DNA of 64,000 bases, taken from contig OZ223274.1 of the NCBI GenBank assembly GCA_965140595.1, positions 1,806,856 through 1,870,855 on the forward strand. Direction: 5' to 3'. The stretch is from an uncultured Sphaerochaeta sp. GTDB lineage: Bacteria; Spirochaetota; Spirochaetia; Sphaerochaetales; Sphaerochaetaceae. This document shows, piece after piece, positions 52,960-58,827 of this stretch; position 1 is the stretch's first letter, and each line of letters opens with the position of its first letter. The notes under the pieces were generated by a model. It was not told where the DNA came from, searched no databases, and saw only the letters and a program-made list of their open reading frames with translations. A program made the position numbers and the translations under genes.

Positions 52960-53752
52960 GCAGAGTCCCTTCAGAGAGCAGTGTCAGTCTATTCTGGATG
53001 TCCTTCTGTATGGGGGGAAGGATTGAGAGAACTGAGATACTGACATAGCCAGCAGAGACAGCCTGATAGTCGGTCTCAACCGTATCGCACTTCTGGACTG
53101 GAGGTGAGCCACCTTTCAAGGAAAAAACCACAGAATTACCCAATTGGATAGAAGAGTCCTCATACACTTTCTGATTCTCATCCTCGTGTTTTGTCACGGC
53201 ATCACGATAATCAAGATAGCTCATGACAGCAGGCTTCCATTTCCCGTTTCCCTTGGCAGGCACGTTGATATTGAGGATGCATTCACTACTGCACAGGGGA
53301 TAAAGCTCGTCGAGGTGGTCAACGACAAACCGGGCAGACTGCGCAAAAACAAAGCGCCCATTTTCATCACGCGTACAGCTCAAGGCTATAGCCTTCATAC
53401 CCGTGAGAGCAGCTTCCCGTGCAGCTCCGACAGTGCCTGAATAGAGAATATCAGTAGAAATATTATAGCCATGATTGATGCCGCTAATGACCAGATCTGG
53501 ATCGGAGGAGAAGACATTCCCCTTACGGGCATAAAGCATGCAATCGGCAGGAGTCCCACTGCAATGGTAATGCATGGGAGCATATTCGGTGATGGTTATA
53601 TCACCACGGAGAGTCATGGAATGGCTACTGGCACTTCGCTCGTGTGATGGCGCACAGACCCAAACCTCATGTCCTGCTTGGACAAGGGCCTTCTCAAGAA
53701 CAGCTATGCCCTCGCTCAGGTATCCGTCATCATTTGTCAGTAAAATTTTCAT
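52952..53752 (-). CDS. surE: 5'/3'-nucleotidase SurE
   Basis: It has the N-terminus ILLTNDDGY. Confidence 0.85.
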   Translation of the reverse strand: MKILLTNDDGYLSEGIAVLEKALVQAGHEVWVCAPSHERSASSHSMTLRGDITITEYAPMHYHCSGTPADCMLYARKGNVFSSDPDLVISGINHGYNISTDILYSGTVGAAREAALTGMKAIALSCTRDENGRFVFAQSARFVVDHLDELYPLCSSECILNINVPAKGNGKWKPAVMSYLDYRDAVTKHEDENQKVYEDSSIQLGNSVVFSLKGGSPPVQKCDTVETDYQAVSAGYVSISVLSILPPIQKDIQNRLTLLSEGTLHV

Positions 53753-54918
53753 GTATGATCTTGGAACACAACCTTGGCTGAACCGCCACCTTCATAGATG
53801 TACCATCGGGGATGAAAACCGAAAATGTGTTCGTACTCCTCTAGACGGCTAATATAACTTGGAAGCGCCTGTTTACTCAAGAGGACCATGACATTCCCAC
53901 TAAATCCATTGGATACGAGTACAGCTCCCACACTGCCATTAATTTCTGATGAGCGTTTTGTAAGCCAGTCGACCTCAGGACAGGAAACCTCAAGCAAATC
54001 ACGCAAACCTGTCTGAATCTTCACCATAGTCTTGCCATACAGCGCAACATCTTTAGGATTGAGCATCGAGGCAGCATCGAAGGTGAGCCTGGATTCCATA
54101 AGGATATATTCACAAATATGCCTTGCATCTTCTTCAAGAGGAACAACGCGGGCAGACAGGTCCCCTTCAGGAAAATCCCTAATGAACCCGCCGGGCTTCA
54201 ATTCCCTGAGCTTGGCAAAAGCAACGTTAATGGCCCTACGTTTTGCAGCAATCTCTTCACGCATTGCATTGGGAGAAATCTTGCTGTCAACGATGAGCGC
54301 TACATACTCCTCGCTCTCTTCCGTAAAAGGAAAGGCTAGTTCCTGGAATGTCAGGTGTTGCAGATCAAAGAAAAGAACTTTTCCCTTTTGTCCGTTTATC
54401 ATAGTCAAAAGGTCGCTAATCTTGCACAGCTCATTGTTGAAAGTGGTGTTTGCCTGGTAAATAACACGAATCATGGAGGAAATGCTCATCTGCAGGTCCA
54501 TAAGAGTATTGAGAGCCATACAGACGCCCAAGGCAATGGCAGAACTGACCATCTGGTTGTCACTGAGAAGCAAGGGGCCTTCAACAGTCACATTCAAACC
54601 TGAAAATTCAACACCTTCACTTGATAAGATACCAATCACACCCTTGATGTAATTTCCCCACCTATCCTCTTTACGAAATTTGATATTGCTCAATGAGAAC
54701 CGTTTGCGATCATTAAGGGTAGCATTGGCCAGTTTTACCAACTGGTCATCGCGCTGAGAAATACCCACAAACAAGGTGGCAATATCGGTGCCCAAAATGG
54801 ACCAACCCTTGCAGGAATCTGAATAACTGCCAAAAAGAGTACAGGTCCCCGGCACCTCTACAATTACGAGAGGTGATTCTTCGTACTCTTTTCTATGATG
54901 ACTTAGTATGTTTTCCAT
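53749..54918 (-). CDS. GHMP-kinase-family (galactokinase-like) protein, divergent
   Basis: It has galactokinase-like motif positions (VPGTCTLFGSYSD, WGNYIKG, VSSAIALG, VSNGFSGNV) but several conserved Gly/Ser are substituted. Confidence 0.45.
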   Translation of the reverse strand: MENILSHHRKEYEESPLVIVEVPGTCTLFGSYSDSCKGWSILGTDIATLFVGISQRDDQLVKLANATLNDRKRFSLSNIKFRKEDRWGNYIKGVIGILSSEGVEFSGLNVTVEGPLLLSDNQMVSSAIALGVCMALNTLMDLQMSISSMIRVIYQANTTFNNELCKISDLLTMINGQKGKVLFFDLQHLTFQELAFPFTEESEEYVALIVDSKISPNAMREEIAAKRRAINVAFAKLRELKPGGFIRDFPEGDLSARVVPLEEDARHICEYILMESRLTFDAASMLNPKDVALYGKTMVKIQTGLRDLLEVSCPEVDWLTKRSSEINGSVGAVLVSNGFSGNVMVLLSKQALPSYISRLEEYEHIFGFHPRWYIYEGGGSAKVVFQDHT

Positions 54919-54971
54919 GCCCAACCTAGCTTTTATGCGTAATTTTAGGATACTTACCAATAGATTGCAAC

Positions 54972-55099
54972 AAAAAACCACCATTTAGCGATTTGGTGGC
55001 TGATTCCTTAGGGAAATCCTAGAAAAAGGGCTGGTAAGCACAGAAAAATAAATAATGAAAAGCTTCAAGCAACAGAAAAACCACCATTTCTGGTGGTTT
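54972..55099 (-). terminator. Two tandem hairpins sharing the core AAAAACCACCATTT..TGGTGG downstream of rpmE; the rpmE terminator (55071..55099) plus a second copy (54972..55000)
   Basis: Stems followed by T-runs on the minus strand were seen. Confidence 0.5.
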
Positions 55100-55116
55100 C
55101 CTGTTGTTTATGCAGC

Positions 55117-55320
55117 TTATTTTTCCAGACTGTATCTTTTCTTAAAGCGTTCGATACGCCCTGCGGTATCAACCATTTTCTGGGTACCGGTAAAGAATGG
55201 ATGACAAGCTGAACAAATTTCAACCTCAAGTTTCTTTGCGGTTGTCTTAGTCTTGATCACATTGCCACAAGAGCAAGTGACTTCAGCAACTTCATAACGG
55301 GGGTGGATTCCCTTTTTCAT
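55117..55320 (-). CDS. rpmE: 50S ribosomal protein L31
   Basis: 67 aa with CxxC...CxxC (C..CGN...CSACHPF). Confidence 0.9.
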
Positions 55321-55394: not shown

Positions 55395-57407
55395 CTAATA
55401 ACCTGCAGAATTCGAATGAATCCCTGTATTTATCGAACGCAAGAACGCCTCATTATCCTTAGTCTTTCTAATTTTGTCAATGAGGAAAGGCGTCATCTCT
55501 TGATCATCCATATCACTGACTGCATTTCTTGTAAGCCAAATTCTTGCTGCCTCATCACTGGGGATCAAAAGATCTTCCCTTCTTGTTCCGCTTTTCTTGA
55601 TATTAATGGCTGGGAACTGGCGTTTGTCTGCCAATCTCCGATCAAGGATAATCTCATTATTACCTGTTCCCTTGAACTCTTCGAAGATAACCTCATCCAT
55701 GCGTGAGCCGGTTTCTACAAGACCTGTGGCGATAATGGTCAGACTTCCGCCAAACTCGATATTTCGCGCAGCACCAAAAAACCGCTTGGGCTTGTGCAGT
55801 GCATTGGAGTCGACACCACCACTGAGGATCTTGCCACTTGCAGGAACCGTCTGGTTATAGGCGCGAGCTAAACGGGTAATGGAGTCCAAAAGGATGACAA
55901 CATCCTTCTTGTGTTCGACAAGGCGCTTGGCCTTTTCGATTACCATCTCAGCCACCTGTACATGTCGTGAAGCCTGCTCATCAAAGGTGGAGGCAATGAC
56001 CTCGCCCTTGACATGGCGGCGCATATCCGTAACCTCTTCAGGCCTTTCATCCACAAGCAAAACCATCAATACCACATCAGGGTGGTTGGTGCTTATGGAA
56101 TTGGCAATCTTCTGAAGCAGTACAGTCTTACCAGTACGGGGAGGAGCGACGATCAGCGAACGTTGCCCTTTTCCGATCGGACAGAACATATCAATAATTC
56201 TAGTTGCCATATCCTCTTCAGCTGTCTCAAAACGCATCCTCTCATCAGGAAAGAGTGGTGTAAGGCTATCGAAAGGAACTCGCATCTTTGCTTTTATTGG
56301 CTCATCGTCATTGACTTGCAGTATTCGCAAGATGGCAAAGAACCGCTCATTTTCACGGGGGGTACGCACCTGCCCTTTCACCACATCACCGGTCTTCAGG
56401 TAGAGACTCTTGATCTGGGCGGGTGATACATAGATATCTTCTAAGCCAGAGAGATAGCTATTTGCAGGGGAACGCAGAAATCCAAACCCATCAGGAAGAA
56501 TCTCCAAAGTACCCAGCCCTACAATAACACCACCTTGAGCTGAATGAAGCCTGAGAATCTCTGCTATTATCTCCTGCTTGCGAAGGTCCAAGATGTTGTC
56601 AGAGCTCATCCCTTTCTCTACACCGCTCTTTCGTACTTCATCAATAGAGAGGTTGGTATAGTCAATCAGGTTCAGTACTGGTGCTTCTGGATGTTCTTCA
56701 ATATTCAAATCATTTGAGACCTCATCCTGCTGACCTTGCCTCATTGGACGGTTCTGGTTGTAGGACTGCCCTTTTTGGTAACTTCCCTTGCTATGGGGTC
56801 TGTTTTGCTGAGTTCTCCCACCGGTTCGAGAACCATAGGGGCTGTTCTTTCTTGGTTGGCTCTGGTTAGGGTTTCTATTCTGACTTGAATTTTGGTTTTG
56901 ATTCGGGTTCAAGTTCGGGTTTTGATTTTGATTTTGGTTTGGATTCTGATTTGTGTTCTGGTTCTGATTTGTGTATTGGTTTTGGCTTTGATTTTGATTT
57001 TGGTTCTGGTTTTGGTTTTGGTTCAGGCCCTGGTCCTGGGAAGCCGATACTGGCTGGGAAAAGGAAACTGAAGTGACCGGAGCTTGCTTGATTCTGCTCT
57101 TTGGCGCAGGAGGTGTAGGTATTGACGCCTTCTCATTAGGAATCAACTCCAACTGCGAGGTATCTTTCTTAGGAGCAGGTTTCCTCTTGGGTGAAACCTT
57201 AGTTGCTGTGGACCCCTTAGGCCTTCCTCTCTTCTTAGGCTCAGAGGGAACCTCCTCCTGCTTTGTAACAGGGGGTGTGGGTTCGGCTGAACCAGCCACT
57301 ACTGGGCTTTTTTTGCGAGTAATGCGACGTATCACTTTCTTTGCAGGTTCCTGCACAGAAGGACGAGCTACGTCAGCTTGATCATTCAGTATTTCTTCGG
57401 AAGACAT
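55395..57407 (-). CDS. rho: Transcription termination factor Rho with a long N-terminal insertion (AT-hook-like plus N/Q-rich tract)
   Basis: The C-terminus has Rho motifs (P-loop GKT, FGFLR, Q- and R-loops). ATG 57407 follows a GGAG RBS; the TTG ORF starts at 57440. Confidence 0.85.
56853..57035 (-). repeat. In-frame hexanucleotide repeat tract encoding an (NQ)n low-complexity region within rho
   Basis: GTTTTGATTTTG/GTTCTGGTTTTG-type repeats lie on the plus strand and translate to NQNQNQ... on the minus strand. Confidence 0.8.
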
Positions 57408-57561
57408 AGGATAAACTCCAACGAAACGGGTTTTTGACAAGTACCTGATAGCACGTGCTAAAAGATATAGTCCAGTACCGGTTTCTAAACGTAAAACTTA
57501 ATGTAAGAATGTGCGGAAATGTGAAGGAGTGTGTACCATTAGTATTTCCGCGATTAGTAAC

Positions 57562-58827
57562 TTAAATATATTGCCACTTGCGCACAGTGTCAAGCAAGGC
57601 ATCCCCATTGATGTACTTACTGGCTAGTATTAACGCCGCAACTGAGGCTTTTCGTCGTACAGAGACCCTACCCCAAGATGTAAACTGTAATTTCACAGTT
57701 TGAGTCATTTTCCCTTTTGCAGCAAACCCCAACCATACCATGCCGATTGGCTTCTCTTCACTTCCTCCGGTAGGTCCGGCTATCCCAGTGATGGAAAGGG
57801 CGTAATCAGTGCCTGAGACTTCTAGGATACCCTCAGCCATTTCAGAGGCACATTCACCACTTACCGCACCATAGGCTTGAAGTGTACGTTCCTTTACCCC
57901 TAGCATCTTCATTTTTGCATCGTTGGAATAGGTTGCCGCTCCACCCCAGAACCAAGAGGAACTTCCACTTTCGTCTGTGAGCAGTTTTGCCACATACCCT
58001 GAGGTACAACTCTCTGCACAACTGATGGTCTGACCTTTCGATCGGAGCAAATCTGTCAGCACGGTTGCAGGCATGATATCCCCATCGACTACCAAAGCAG
58101 GTCCTACAAGAGAGCGCAAGCGTTGAACCATCTCTTGCCTTCGTTCTTCAGCCTCGCCCACCAGATAGAGACTGATTTTCAAATCCTGAAAACGAGTCCC
58201 CCATTGTATCCCCTCTGAAGCAACCTGACAGCAGAGTTCTTCAAGTTTTGCTTCTGCCAATAAAAAAGTCGAGAATTCGGTACGGGAGAAGTCATTATGA
58301 CCAATTAGCTGTGCAAGCCAGGGCAGTACCACATCAAAAAACATGGGATCCATCTCACGAGGAGGACCGGGCATCGCAACACAGGCAACAGAACGCTCTC
58401 CTACAGGAATAAATCCCTTAAAGCCTGCGGCAGTCCCAAGAGGATTGGCTATCGATTCAAATCCAGAGGGAAACATTGCTTGTTGTTCATTCGCTCCCCA
58501 AATGCGCTCCCCAATTCTTGCATAGAGCGTGTCAAAAGCACTTTGGTCCCTGACAAGGGGAACTTTGGCAAGCGTGGCAACAATGCTGCGTGTAAGGTCA
58601 TCACTGGTAGGGCCTAACCCTCCGGTAAGGATTACCACATCACAGGAATCGAGGCAGGCCCTGAGGGCACTATCAATGGTCCCGTCATCAGGGACAATCA
58701 CCATACGCTCCACCTGATAGCCAAGTTGGGTTAATTGGCTGGAGATAACCTGACAATGCTTGTCAGCTATCACCCCTCGGGTAAGTTCCGTACCAATGAC
58801 GAAAAGAGATGCTGTTTTGTAGAGCAT
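57562..58827 (-). CDS. cinA: Competence/damage-inducible protein CinA (MoeA-like N-domain plus a CinA C-domain)
   Basis: It has the N-terminus FVIGTELTRG and is 421 aa. Confidence 0.8.
   Translation of the reverse strand: MLYKTASLFVIGTELTRGVIADKHCQVISSQLTQLGYQVERMVIVPDDGTIDSALRACLDSCDVVILTGGLGPTSDDLTRSIVATLAKVPLVRDQSAFDTLYARIGERIWGANEQQAMFPSGFESIANPLGTAAGFKGFIPVGERSVACVAMPGPPREMDPMFFDVVLPWLAQLIGHNDFSRTEFSTFLLAEAKLEELCCQVASEGIQWGTRFQDLKISLYLVGEAEERRQEMVQRLRSLVGPALVVDGDIMPATVLTDLLRSKGQTISCAESCTSGYVAKLLTDESGSSSWFWGGAATYSNDAKMKMLGVKERTLQAYGAVSGECASEMAEGILEVSGTDYALSITGIAGPTGGSEEKPIGMVWLGFAAKGKMTQTVKLQFTSWGRVSVRRKASVAALILASKYINGDALLDTVRKWQYI

What the first reader, a model, noticed from the sequence alone, without database searches (positions are those of the whole stretch)
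55395..57407. Rho factor with an AT-hook-like RGRPKG and a 60-residue (NQ)n prion-like tract encoded by hexanucleotide repeats
- The N-terminal insertion (about 270 aa) contains a K/R/P-rich segment ([24 protein letters not shown]) followed by [45 protein letters not shown]...
- A Clostridium botulinum Rho has been shown to carry a functional prion-forming domain in its N-terminal insertion.
- The N/Q richness here fits prion-like domain criteria.
- The coding DNA is a near-perfect 6-bp repeat array (56853..57035), so it is prone to in-frame expansion or contraction and could give strain-to-strain variation in tract length.
Basis: partly seen in the sequence, partly recalled or inferred. Interest (0 to 1): 0.6.

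Follow-up and report, generated by a model that had tools for sequence, protein, structure and literature searches.

The report
Sphaerochaeta Rho with disordered N/Q-rich head
This is the transcription terminator Rho of a Sphaerochaeta spirochaete, carrying a roughly 240-residue floppy N-terminal head with a conserved AT-hook-like RNA/DNA-binding motif and an unusually long, length-variable asparagine/glutamine tract; it is an extreme member of a class of "atypical Rho" proteins already described, not a new kind of system.

Summary
Window 55395..57407 (-) encodes Rho (TIGR00767, 658 bits). About 240 extra residues precede the canonical N-terminal domain. They include KKRGRPKGS and a 61-residue tract with 45 N/Q (binomial P about 5e-39).

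Three corrections:
- The extra region is an N-terminal "initial region" (Type 2a atypical Rho, NAR 2024), not an insertion.
- The DNA is 6-periodic but not near-perfect. TRF gives 72% matches, and the longest perfect run is 17 nt.
- Prion predictors disagree. The tract passes the 30-per-80 N/Q count I recall as Michelitsch-Weissman (49/80) and an approximate PLAAC-style score. My PAPA re-implementation gives 0.003, below the 0.05 threshold.

The organism is a Sphaerochaeta species; the nearest Rho is 84% identical by BLASTP. Sphaerochaetaceae Rho proteins generally carry this head. The RGRP motif is conserved in 88 of 114 relatives. The N/Q tract varies in 2- or 6-residue steps. Two nearly identical metagenome contigs differ by a single 18-nt unit.

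The best reading is a disordered RNA-binding and self-association module, like the condensate-forming IDR of Bacteroides Rho, with a slippage-labile prion-like subdomain. A true Clostridium-type prion is possible but unproven. It is a new member of a known kind, of moderate interest.

The parts
55395..57407 (-). rho coding sequence (670 aa plus stop), ATG start MSSEEIL
   Evidence: ORF list. TIGR00767 658 bits and NF006886 641 bits. Pfam Rho_RNA_bind and ATP-synt_ab. The MSSEE N-terminus is shared by homologs.
56718..57407 (-). Disordered N-terminal 'initial region', aa 1-230 (the non-canonical sequence runs to about aa 240-250)
   Evidence: It lies before the Rho N-terminal domain. AlphaFold2 with a 40-sequence alignment gives pLDDT 30-42 and no secondary structure over aa 1-230, against 80-92 for aa 231-380. 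The extension has no Pfam family.
57309..57341 (-). Conserved basic motif 1, [11 protein letters not shown] (aa 23-33)
   Evidence: The alignment consensus is KKxVRRVTRKK across 40 Sphaerochaetaceae Rho, and K24 is at least 90% conserved. The aa 21-35 segment has net charge +7.
57210..57236 (-). AT-hook-like motif KKRGRPKGS (aa 58-66)
   Evidence: It has a G-R-P core with flanking K/R, as in the AT-hook definition (PMC4615771). A basic-flanked GRP is present once in 88 of 114 relatives, mostly as KKRRGRPKK. Composition alone predicts 0.07 occurrences. It did not register as a Pfam hit.
57165..57200 (-). Second K/R/P-rich patch [12 protein letters not shown] (aa 70-81)
   Evidence: Read directly from the sequence. 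The aa 57-92 segment has net charge +8.
56856..57038 (-). N/Q tract, aa 124-184 (45 N/Q in 61 residues), encoded by a degenerate hexanucleotide (AAY-CAR) array
   Evidence: Binomial P 4.9e-39. TRF reports period 6, 17.7 copies and 72% matches at 56918..57023. Offset-6 identity is 64% and the longest perfect run is 17 nt. Tract length varies among relatives.
56943..57032 (-). Longest proline- and charge-free N/Q segment, [30 protein letters not shown] (aa 126-155); the candidate soft amyloid core, if there is one
   Evidence: It is 30 residues long. The median in 114 relatives is 7 and the next longest is 25. pWALTZ uses 21-residue cores (PMC4703818).
56727..56855 (-). Conserved basic R/Q/G/Y/S-rich segment [43 protein letters not shown] (aa 185-227)
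   Evidence: The alignment consensus is RKxNxxYxNRNxRNQQxRxHxK...QKxQ....NRxxRQ, and R198 is at least 90% conserved. It is conserved across Sphaerochaeta while the N/Q tract is not.
56529..56654 (-). Rho N-terminal helix-bundle domain (aa about 252-293)
   Evidence: The Pfam Rho_N match is weak: 16.7 bits against a cut-off of 24.9. The region is covered by TIGR00767. AF2 predicts helices with pLDDT around 90.
56298..56513 (-). Rho OB-fold RNA-binding domain (aa 299-370)
   Evidence: Pfam PF07497, 97.4 bits.
55590..56204 (-). Rho ATPase domain (aa 402-606)
   Evidence: Pfam PF00006, 97.9 bits. The P-loop residues of PPRTGKT are invariant or at least 90% conserved in the alignment.
57565..57593 (-). 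Promoter-like site TTGACA-17-TATATT upstream of rho (context only)
   Evidence: Consensus scan, 11 of 12 matches. The number of such sites in the region is no higher than in shuffles, so this is weak evidence.
55076..55320 (-). rpmE (L31, 55117..55320) immediately downstream of rho, followed by a terminator-like hairpin (55076..55101)
   Evidence: Pfam Ribosomal_L31, 109.9 bits. The hairpin has 11 pairs and a T-run.

Best explanation
The gene encodes the transcription termination factor Rho of a Sphaerochaeta species (Spirochaetota). A complete canonical Rho (helix bundle, OB fold, RecA-type ATPase) is preceded by an intrinsically disordered N-terminal 'initial region' of about 240 residues. 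This makes it a Type 2a atypical Rho.

The head is modular:
- an acidic tip;
- two or three conserved basic short motifs: [11 protein letters not shown], the AT-hook-like KKRGRPKGS, and KRKPAPKK;
- a hypervariable N/Q tract;
- a conserved R/Q/G/Y-rich basic segment next to the RNA-binding domain.

Inferred mechanism:
- The basic motifs add extra, multivalent contacts with nascent RNA. There would be six heads per hexamer.
- Together with the N/Q-rich prion-like subdomain they promote or tune Rho self-association or condensation, and through that its termination activity. The analogy is the IDR of Bacteroides thetaiotaomicron Rho.
- The N/Q tract grows and shrinks by in-frame replication slippage of 6- to 18-nt units. 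Its length therefore differs between species and strains. The window's species carries the longest and purest version seen.

Shown: gene identity, domain layout, predicted disorder, compositional bias, motif conservation, and tract-length polymorphism in relatives. Inferred: RNA binding by the motifs, condensation, and any effect on termination.
For: - Rho identity and a contiguous core.
- Sphaerochaeta origin, and heads of 190-370 aa in nearly all full-length Sphaerochaetaceae Rho.
- AF2 pLDDT 30-42 with no secondary structure over aa 1-230.
- Conserved short charged motifs within an otherwise variable head. The RGRP motif is present in 88 of 114 relatives.
- The head evolves faster than the core: aa 1-123 are 73-87% identical to the closest relatives against 97-99% for the core.
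- N/Q bias P 4.9e-39.
- Tract indels in 2- and 6-residue steps within 90%-identity clusters.
- An 18-nt unit present in 3, 2 or 1 copies in otherwise almost identical sequences.
- Other repeat types occupy the same position in other lineages: (NT)n, (NNA)n and poly-N.
[quoted passage not shown] These regions carry QN and arginine-rich motifs and are predicted to be disordered and droplet-forming (PMC11347177).
- BtRho has conserved charged motifs that drive RNA-dependent condensation, plus a 68-aa N/Q prion-like subdomain that modulates it. Composition is conserved but length is not (PMC13269538).
- Canonical AT-hooks can bind RNA (PMC4615771).
Against: - No experiment exists on any spirochaete Rho head, so RNA binding and condensation rest only on analogy.
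- BtRho's IDR is an insertion between the helix bundle and the OB fold and is K/E-rich. This one is N-terminal and K/R/P-rich.
- Some relatives have almost no N/Q tract (P0006, P0063-P0075), so the tract is dispensable for basic Rho function.
- 26 of 114 relatives lack the RGRP motif.
- FuzDrop, flDPnn and the official PLAAC could not be run here.
Confidence: 0.55

Rival explanations
1. The N/Q tract is a genuine prion-forming domain like that of Clostridium botulinum Rho. It can convert to a self-propagating amyloid that inactivates Rho, giving heritable, bistable read-through of Rho-dependent terminators. Tract length would set the switching frequency.
For: - 49 N/Q per 80 residues exceeds the 30-per-80 count I recall as the Michelitsch-Weissman criterion.
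- My approximate PLAAC-style log-odds for the best 60-residue window is 84 bits. Sup35 scores 88 and the Rho core scores -30.
- The region is predicted disordered.
- There is a 30-residue proline- and charge-free N/Q segment containing L, Y and T. It is longer than the 21-residue cores used by pWALTZ and is the longest in the family (PMC4703818).
- CbRho is an experimentally supported precedent (PMC11175392).
- Rho is among the most widely distributed predicted prion-like families (PMC6400439).
Against: - The PAPA re-implementation gives a maximum of 0.003, below 0.05, while the Sup35 and Ure2 controls pass. No relative passes.
- The second half of the tract is interrupted by proline every 4-10 residues, and the flanks are highly basic.
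- There is only one aromatic residue in the tract, whereas the CbRho core depends on two Phe (PMC4703818).
- A QN motif is not sufficient, and B. fragilis Rho did not aggregate (PMC11347177).
- The BtRho prion-like subdomain acts as an inhibitor of condensation, not as a prion (PMC13269538).
- The tract is short or absent in many congeners.
Confidence: 0.15
2. The N/Q tract is a selectively near-neutral by-product of replication slippage in a tolerant disordered linker. It has no role beyond spacing, and the expanded version in the window is simply a recent, unselected expansion.
For: - Length and sequence are not conserved, and the tract ranges from none to about 60 residues.
- Different repeat units ([13 protein letters not shown], poly-N) occupy the same site.
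- Strain-level copy-number change in a perfect 18-nt repeat shows ongoing slippage.
- The head diverges much faster than the core.
Against: - N- or N/Q-richness at the same position recurs across Sphaerochaeta, Pleomorphochaeta and related lineages despite different repeat units. 40 of 114 relatives have at least 30 N/Q per 80 residues, and the median is 29. This suggests that composition is maintained.
- The window's array is degenerate at synonymous sites, with a longest perfect run of 17 nt. It is therefore old enough to have accumulated substitutions while staying N/Q at the protein level.
- The same 'composition conserved, length not conserved' pattern belongs to a functional subdomain in BtRho (PMC13269538).
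Confidence: 0.25
3. The RGRP motif is a true DNA-binding AT-hook that tethers Rho to AT-rich DNA or the nucleoid, so that Rho sits near transcribing polymerase, rather than binding RNA.
For: - KKRGRPKGS fits the canonical AT-hook definition of a GRP core with adjacent basic residues (PMC4615771).
- From my own recollection, not checked here, RGRPKGS also occurs in the second AT-hook of HMGA1.
- The motif is conserved in 88 of 114 relatives.
- The genome is moderately AT-rich, at 46.8% GC in the window.
Against: - There is only one hook per chain.
- Rho's substrate is RNA, and arginine-rich additions in other Rho proteins raise RNA affinity (PMC11347177).
- AT-hooks also bind RNA, sometimes better than DNA (PMC4615771).
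- No Pfam AT_hook hit was obtained.
Confidence: 0.05

Closest known systems
Type 2a atypical Rho with an 'initial region', e.g. Xanthomonas oryzae Rho (+214 aa, 95-residue QN-rich predicted prion-like stretch), as classified in 'Diversification of the Rho transcription termination factor in bacteria' (PMC11347177)
   Same: - The extra region of more than 25 aa lies before the N-terminal domain.
- It is disordered and carries a QN motif in its centre plus arginine-rich motifs.
- The paper reports that most Spirochaetota have Type 2 Rho.
   Different: - It comes from a different phylum and shows no sequence similarity in the head.
- Here the QN part is an almost pure (NQ)n dipeptide array.
- The head carries a conserved single RGRP AT-hook-like motif, which that paper does not mention (0 occurrences of 'AT-hook').
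Bacteroides thetaiotaomicron Rho IDR (Krypotou et al. 2023; PMC13269538)
   Same: - A large disordered addition contains a few conserved short charged motifs inside otherwise variable sequence.
- It also has an N/Q-rich prion-like subdomain of about 60-70 residues, conserved in composition but not in length, with a conserved positively charged element beside it.
   Different: - BtRho's IDR is an insertion between the helix bundle and the OB fold, and its charged part is K/E-rich.
- Here the IDR is N-terminal and K/R/P-rich.
- Condensation, the ppGpp response and the fitness role are demonstrated for BtRho and untested here.
Clostridium botulinum Rho prion domain (Pallares 2016, PMC4703818; Yuan & Hochschild 2017, as summarised in PMC11175392)
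   Same: A polar N/Q-type low-complexity region sits in a disordered N-terminal part of Rho, upstream of the RNA-binding domain.
   Different: - CbRho's region is an insertion (+119 aa) that is asparagine- and serine-rich. Its 21-residue core contains two Phe, and PAPA predicts it as a prion domain.
- Here the tract is alternating N/Q, proline-interrupted and PAPA-negative in my implementation, and it lies before the helix bundle.
- Amyloid formation and propagation are shown for CbRho only.
Canonical AT-hook (HMGA-type GRP motif; PMC4615771)
   Same: The G-R-P core is directly flanked by K/R: KKRGRPKGS.
   Different: - It is a single copy in a bacterial RNA helicase.
- The likely ligand is RNA.
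- Pfam did not detect it.
- Binding is untested.
Bacterial coding-region tandem-repeat (VNTR / contingency) loci
   Same: In-frame copy-number change of a short tandem repeat (18-nt unit) occurs between near-identical strains of a sister species.
   Different: - The window's own array is degenerate, with a longest perfect run of 17 nt.
- The changes alter the length of a disordered tract rather than switching the gene on and off.

Membership tests
Transcription termination factor Rho (TIGR00767 / NF006886) | Full-length equivalog HMM score above the curated cut-off | tested here: met
   TIGR00767 scores 658.3 bits against a cut-off of 509.45. NF006886 scores 640.7 bits against 315.
Transcription termination factor Rho (TIGR00767 / NF006886) | OB-fold RNA-binding domain and RecA-type ATPase domain with a P-loop | tested here: met
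   PF07497 scores 97.4 bits and PF00006 scores 97.9 bits. The GKT of the P-loop is invariant in the 40-sequence alignment.
Transcription termination factor Rho (TIGR00767 / NF006886) | N-terminal helix-bundle domain (Rho_N) | tested here: inconclusive
   Pfam Rho_N scores 16.7 bits, below the 24.9 cut-off. The region is nevertheless covered by TIGR00767 from model position 6, and AF2 predicts helices there with pLDDT around 90.
Atypical Rho Type 2a (initial region; PMC11347177) | [quoted passage not shown] | tested here: met
   About 250 residues precede the first residue matched by the Rho models.
Atypical Rho Type 2a (initial region; PMC11347177) | [quoted passage not shown] | tested here: met
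   TIGR00767 positions 6-414 (409 positions) align to 411 contiguous residues.
Prion-forming domain of the CbRho / yeast Q/N type | Disordered region of at least about 60 residues strongly enriched in N/Q | tested here: met
   45 N/Q in 61 residues and 49 in 80, with P 4.9e-39. AF2 pLDDT is below 50 there.
Prion-forming domain of the CbRho / yeast Q/N type | PAPA prion-propensity score of at least 0.05 | tested here: not met
   My re-implementation, with parameters recalled from the published script, gives a maximum of 0.003. The Sup35 and Ure2 controls score 0.100 and 0.103.
Prion-forming domain of the CbRho / yeast Q/N type | Positive PLAAC core score | tested here: inconclusive
   Only an approximate log-odds table of my own could be used. 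The best 60-residue window scores 84 bits against 88 for Sup35. The official PLAAC was not available.
Prion-forming domain of the CbRho / yeast Q/N type | Soft amyloid core (pWALTZ, 21 residues) | not tested
   pWALTZ was not available. The only proxy is a 30-residue proline- and charge-free N/Q segment.
Prion-forming domain of the CbRho / yeast Q/N type | Amyloid formation, heritable self-propagation and ClpB dependence | not testable with these tools
   These require wet-lab assays. No clpB-like ORF was recognised in the window by a Walker-motif scan.
BtRho-like condensate-forming Rho IDR (PMC13269538) | Disordered region with conserved short charged motifs in otherwise non-conserved sequence | tested here: met
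   The consensus shows KKxVRRVTRKK and KKRRGRPxK islands. RGRP is present in 88 of 114 relatives. Disorder is supported by AF2.
BtRho-like condensate-forming Rho IDR (PMC13269538) | N/Q-rich prion-like subdomain conserved in composition but not in length | tested here: met
   The median is 29 N/Q per 80 residues across 114 relatives, and tract lengths vary widely.
BtRho-like condensate-forming Rho IDR (PMC13269538) | IDR inserted between the helix bundle and the OB fold, with a K/E-rich driver subdomain | tested here: not met
   The head is N-terminal to the helix bundle. Its composition is K/R/P-rich, with 34 K+R against 20 D+E in aa 1-250.
BtRho-like condensate-forming Rho IDR (PMC13269538) | RNA- and ppGpp-dependent phase separation that raises termination activity | not testable with these tools
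   This requires purified protein and in vivo imaging.
AT-hook | G-R-P core flanked by basic residues within 1-5 positions | tested here: met
   KKRGRPKGS at aa 58-66. The definition is taken from PMC4615771.
AT-hook | Recognition by a curated profile (Pfam AT_hook) | tested here: not met
   There was no Pfam hit for the 32-aa peptide or the 239-aa head at E up to 10. The model is very short and HMMER filters may drop it.
AT-hook | Minor-groove binding to AT-rich DNA | not testable with these tools
   A biochemical assay is needed.
Slippage-prone coding tandem repeat (VNTR) | Long perfect tandem array in the sequence itself | tested here: not met
   The longest perfect period-6 run is 17 nt, and TRF gives 72% matches.
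Slippage-prone coding tandem repeat (VNTR) | Copy-number differences between closely related genomes | tested here: met
   L083 and L084 are 99.2% identical over 2555 nt, and the only gap is one 18-nt unit. Tracts differ in 2-residue steps within 90% clusters. This was shown in sister species, not in the window's own species.

The most novel reading that the evidence does not exclude
In Sphaerochaeta, the Rho N/Q array is a tunable, slippage-driven 'knob'. Its length would set the threshold for a self-templating (prion-like) or condensate state of an essential global terminator. Strains differing by a few NQ units would then differ heritably in genome-wide termination read-through. The window's species, with a 30-residue uninterrupted N/Q core, would have crossed into the switchable regime.
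Probability: 0.1. Interest if true: 0.7.

Novelty: new member of a known kind. Interest (0 to 1): 0.35.

Why it matters
Rho controls pervasive and antisense transcription genome-wide, so anything that modulates its assembly state acts as a global regulator. Disordered additions to Rho are now known to drive condensation (Bacteroides) or prion-like inactivation (C. botulinum), but none has been studied in a spirochaete.

This locus offers three things:
- a natural allelic series of N/Q tract lengths, from 0 to about 60 residues across one genus and 1 to 3 copies of an 18-nt unit within one population;
- an invariant core and conserved charged motifs alongside that series;
- the most extreme tract in the family, which is the obvious construct to test first.

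If the tract does nothing, that would also be informative. It would show how much low-complexity sequence an essential hexameric motor tolerates.

Tried and rejected
- Exact-sequence look-up of the window's Rho found that it is not in the 15-billion-protein collection.
- A metagenome scan with the first 127 residues found only relatives up to 81% identical in the head and no same-species contig. Tract-length variation in this species itself could therefore not be examined.
- The genome-contig scan was largely swamped by generic Rho and NQNQNQNQ pattern hits. Its best locus was 83% identical.
- Pfam on the isolated head and on the AT-hook peptide gave no meaningful hit.
- Rfam on the whole window gave no hit, so no known leader RNA precedes rho.
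- The Toombs 2010 PAPA paper and the Yuan & Hochschild 2017 paper are not held. PAPA parameters therefore came from memory and were sanity-checked with Sup35 and Ure2, whose sequences I also entered from memory. CbRho facts came from PMC4703818 and PMC11175392.
- The official PLAAC, pWALTZ, FuzDrop and flDPnn could not be run. My PLAAC-style table is an approximation and was used only as a rough indicator.
- I rejected the TTG at 57440 as the start, because homologs begin at MSSEE and GGAG lies 8 nt upstream of the ATG.
- I rejected 'insertion domain'.
- I rejected assembly artefact. The window's array is imperfect and hence uniquely assemblable, unlike L086, whose contig ends inside a perfect (NNA)n run.
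- I rejected on/off phase variation, because all observed indels are in frame.
Full report
**What is there**

The ORF on the minus strand from 57407 (ATG) to 55395 encodes a 670-aa protein. An in-frame TTG at 57440 would add 11 residues. I prefer the ATG because homologs begin MSSEE and a GGAG lies 8 nt upstream of it.

The protein is transcription termination factor Rho. TIGR00767 scores 658 bits against a cut-off of 509, and NF006886 scores 641 bits. Pfam finds Rho_RNA_bind (97 bits) and the ATP-synt_ab ATPase domain (98 bits).

The Rho model aligns from position 6 to 414 with 411 contiguous residues at the C-terminal end. All the extra sequence, about 240-250 residues, therefore lies in front of the canonical N-terminal helix bundle. 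Nothing is inserted between the helix bundle and the OB fold.

In the vocabulary of the 2024 survey of Rho diversity, this is an 'initial region' and the protein is a Type 2a atypical Rho (PMC11347177).

**The observation**

The K/R/P-rich stretch [24 protein letters not shown] is at aa 58-81.

The N/Q tract is at aa 124-184 (window 56856..57038).
- It has 45 N or Q in 61 residues. The window's other long ORFs have an N+Q frequency of 0.069, which gives binomial P = 4.9e-39.
- It has 49 N/Q in the best 80-residue window. No other ORF in the window exceeds 15.

The DNA is periodic but degenerate.
- Tandem Repeats Finder reports period 6, 17.7 copies and 72% matches.
- Identity at offsets that are multiples of 6 is 62-65%, against 22-31% at offsets 2-4 positions out of phase.
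- Synonymous AAC/AAT and CAA/CAG alternation, together with Ser/Thr/Pro/Leu/Tyr/Arg interruptions, limits the longest perfect period-6 run to 17 nt.

'Near-perfect' is therefore an overstatement, and the window's own array should slip much less readily than a perfect microsatellite.

**Organism and family**

The best protein matches are Rho proteins annotated as Sphaerochaeta sp. (Spirochaetota). The closest is 84% identical by BLASTP and 91-94% in a gapped global alignment.
- The core is 97-99% identical to the closest relatives, while head residues 1-123 are only 73-87% identical.
- Flanking DNA is 85-89% identical to the nearest metagenome contigs. These are therefore congeners, not the same species.
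- The exact protein is absent from the 15-billion-sequence collection.

The neighbourhood is lnt - cinA - rho - rpmE on one strand. A promoter-like site lies just upstream of rho, and a hairpin terminator follows rpmE.

**The head is a family trait and is modular**

Of the 120 best homologs, 114 have more than 150 residues in front of the GFGFLR motif, in the range 177-368.

The 40-sequence alignment shows islands of conservation inside otherwise variable sequence:
- MSSEE at the tip;
- KKxVRR(V/I)TRKK;
- KKR(R)GRP(K/R)K;
- a QL(E/D)L motif;
- after the variable N/Q tract, a conserved basic R/Q/G/Y-rich block that runs into [13 protein letters not shown] at the start of the helix bundle.

A basic-flanked G-R-P occurs once in 88 of 114 relatives, whereas composition alone predicts 0.07 occurrences per head. 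It fits the AT-hook definition of a GRP core with adjacent basic residues (PMC4615771). Pfam did not register it.

AlphaFold2 with the alignment gives pLDDT 30-42 and no secondary structure for aa 1-230. The helix bundle and OB fold score 80-92. This is consistent with intrinsic disorder of the head.

**The tract is evolutionarily labile**

Across the genus the tract ranges from essentially absent (P0006, P0063-P0075) to the window's 61 residues.

Within single 90%-identity clusters the tract differs by NQ or NT units. Examples are P0121 against P0122 (one NQ), P0134 against P0142 (two NT), and P0129 and P0130, which are longer and shorter.

The clearest case is two metagenome contigs, L083 and L084.
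- They are 99.2% identical over 2555 nt, and the only gap is one perfect 18-nt unit, AACCAGAATCAGAATACA (NQNQNT). L083 has 3 copies and L084 has 2.
- P0001 has the same flanking residues around the tract and carries one copy.

Other lineages carry (NT)n, (NNA)n or poly-N at the same position. The (NNA)n contig ends inside its repeat.

It could not be tested in the window's own species, because no same-species sequence was found.

**Prion-likeness**

Compositional criteria are met.
- The tract has 49 N/Q per 80 residues, against the threshold of 30 that I recall from Michelitsch and Weissman.
- A rough PLAAC-style log-odds, using my own approximate table, gives 84 bits for the best 60 residues. 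Sup35 scores 88 and the Rho core scores -30.
- The window's protein is the most extreme of its family on both measures. It also has the longest proline- and charge-free N/Q segment: 30 residues (aa 126-155), against a family median of 7.

A re-implementation of PAPA, with parameters recalled from the published script, points the other way.
- It gives a maximum of 0.003, below the 0.05 threshold.
- The Sup35 and Ure2 controls score 0.100 and 0.103.
- None of the 114 relatives passes.

The reasons are visible in the sequence:
- N and Q are nearly neutral in that scale.
- The tract has almost no hydrophobic or aromatic residues.
- The second half has a proline every 4-10 residues.
- The flanks are strongly basic.

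The literature adds further caution:
- The QN motif is common in atypical Rho additions but 'not sufficient', and B. fragilis Rho with such a motif did not aggregate (PMC11347177).
- The CbRho core depends on two phenylalanines (PMC4703818).
- In B. thetaiotaomicron Rho, the 68-residue N/Q prion-like subdomain is an inhibitory modulator of RNA-driven condensation. It is not the driver, and it is not a prion (PMC13269538).

**Most likely mechanism**

The architecture closely parallels the molecular grammar described for BtRho. Both have conserved short charged motifs in a variable disordered region, an N/Q subdomain of conserved composition but variable length, and a conserved positively charged block beside it. 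The location differs (N-terminal rather than inserted), and so does the charge type (K/R/P rather than K/E).

I therefore favour the following model, with confidence about 0.55.
- The head gives each Rho hexamer six flexible, positively charged arms. The aa 1-250 region has 34 K+R against 20 D+E.
- These arms add RNA contacts, including through the RGRP motif. Canonical AT-hooks are reported to bind RNA (PMC4615771).
- The arms also promote or tune self-association or condensation, with the N/Q tract acting as a length-variable modulator.

The alternatives are:
- a genuine CbRho-type prion switch (0.15);
- a near-neutral slippage product (0.25);
- DNA tethering by the AT-hook (0.05).

**Novelty and score**

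Atypical Rho proteins with disordered, QN-containing, sometimes prion-like additions are already well documented.
- They occur in 39.8% of genomes, and most Spirochaetota have Type 2 (PMC11347177).
- Rho is among the most widespread predicted prion-like families (PMC6400439).

This is therefore a new member of a known kind. Three points appear to be new:
- the almost pure (NQ)n form and extreme length of the tract in this species;
- direct evidence for strain-level copy-number change of the tract in a sister species;
- a conserved single AT-hook-like RGRP motif in Sphaerochaetaceae Rho heads.

These make a good experimental entry point, but a specialist would not be surprised by them. Interest: 0.35.

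Noticed in passing
L083 (Ga0307992_1002487) and L084 (Ga0307990_1039518), Rho N/Q tract about 390 nt into the gene: Two metagenome contigs are 99.2% identical over 2555 nt. The only gap is one perfect 18-nt unit, AACCAGAATCAGAATACA (NQNQNT), present in 3 copies in L083 and 2 in L084. P0001 has 1 copy. This is a strain-level VNTR inside an essential gene.
   Followed up: yes
L086 (Ga0172378_10058153), 3' end of the locus: A more distant Sphaerochaeta-like Rho carries at least 11 units of (NNA)n at the same position as the NQ tract. The contig ends inside the repeat, so perfect arrays at this site break short-read assemblies.
   Followed up: partly
window 57309..57341 (-), aa 23-33: A second conserved basic motif, KKxVRR(V/I)TRKK, follows an acidic MSSEE tip. 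It is conserved even in Pleomorphochaeta and Parasphaerochaeta Rho, which lack the RGRP motif or have it in altered form. Its function is unknown.
   Followed up: partly
window 57565..57593 (-) and 55076..55101 (-): A promoter-like site TTGACA-17-TATATT (11 of 12) lies at the 3' end of cinA, about 150 nt upstream of the rho ATG. A strong hairpin with a T-run follows rpmE. This suggests a rho-rpmE transcription unit with a long leader. No Rfam family matches the leader.
   Followed up: partly
window 53749..54984 (-): A 411-aa ORF lies downstream of rpmE on the same strand and has no Pfam match at E <= 1e-5.
   Followed up: no
window 56885..57076 (+): The antisense reading of the NQ array gives a 63-aa G/F/D/S-rich ORF ([16 protein letters not shown]...). 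It is almost certainly a mirror artefact of the repeat, not a gene.
   Followed up: no
L003 (CAVGEF010000104.1, labelled Bacteroidaceae bacterium): A contig binned as Bacteroidaceae encodes a Rho that tblastn reports as 62% identical to this spirochaete Rho over query residues 147-662. This may be a mis-binned contig.
   Followed up: no
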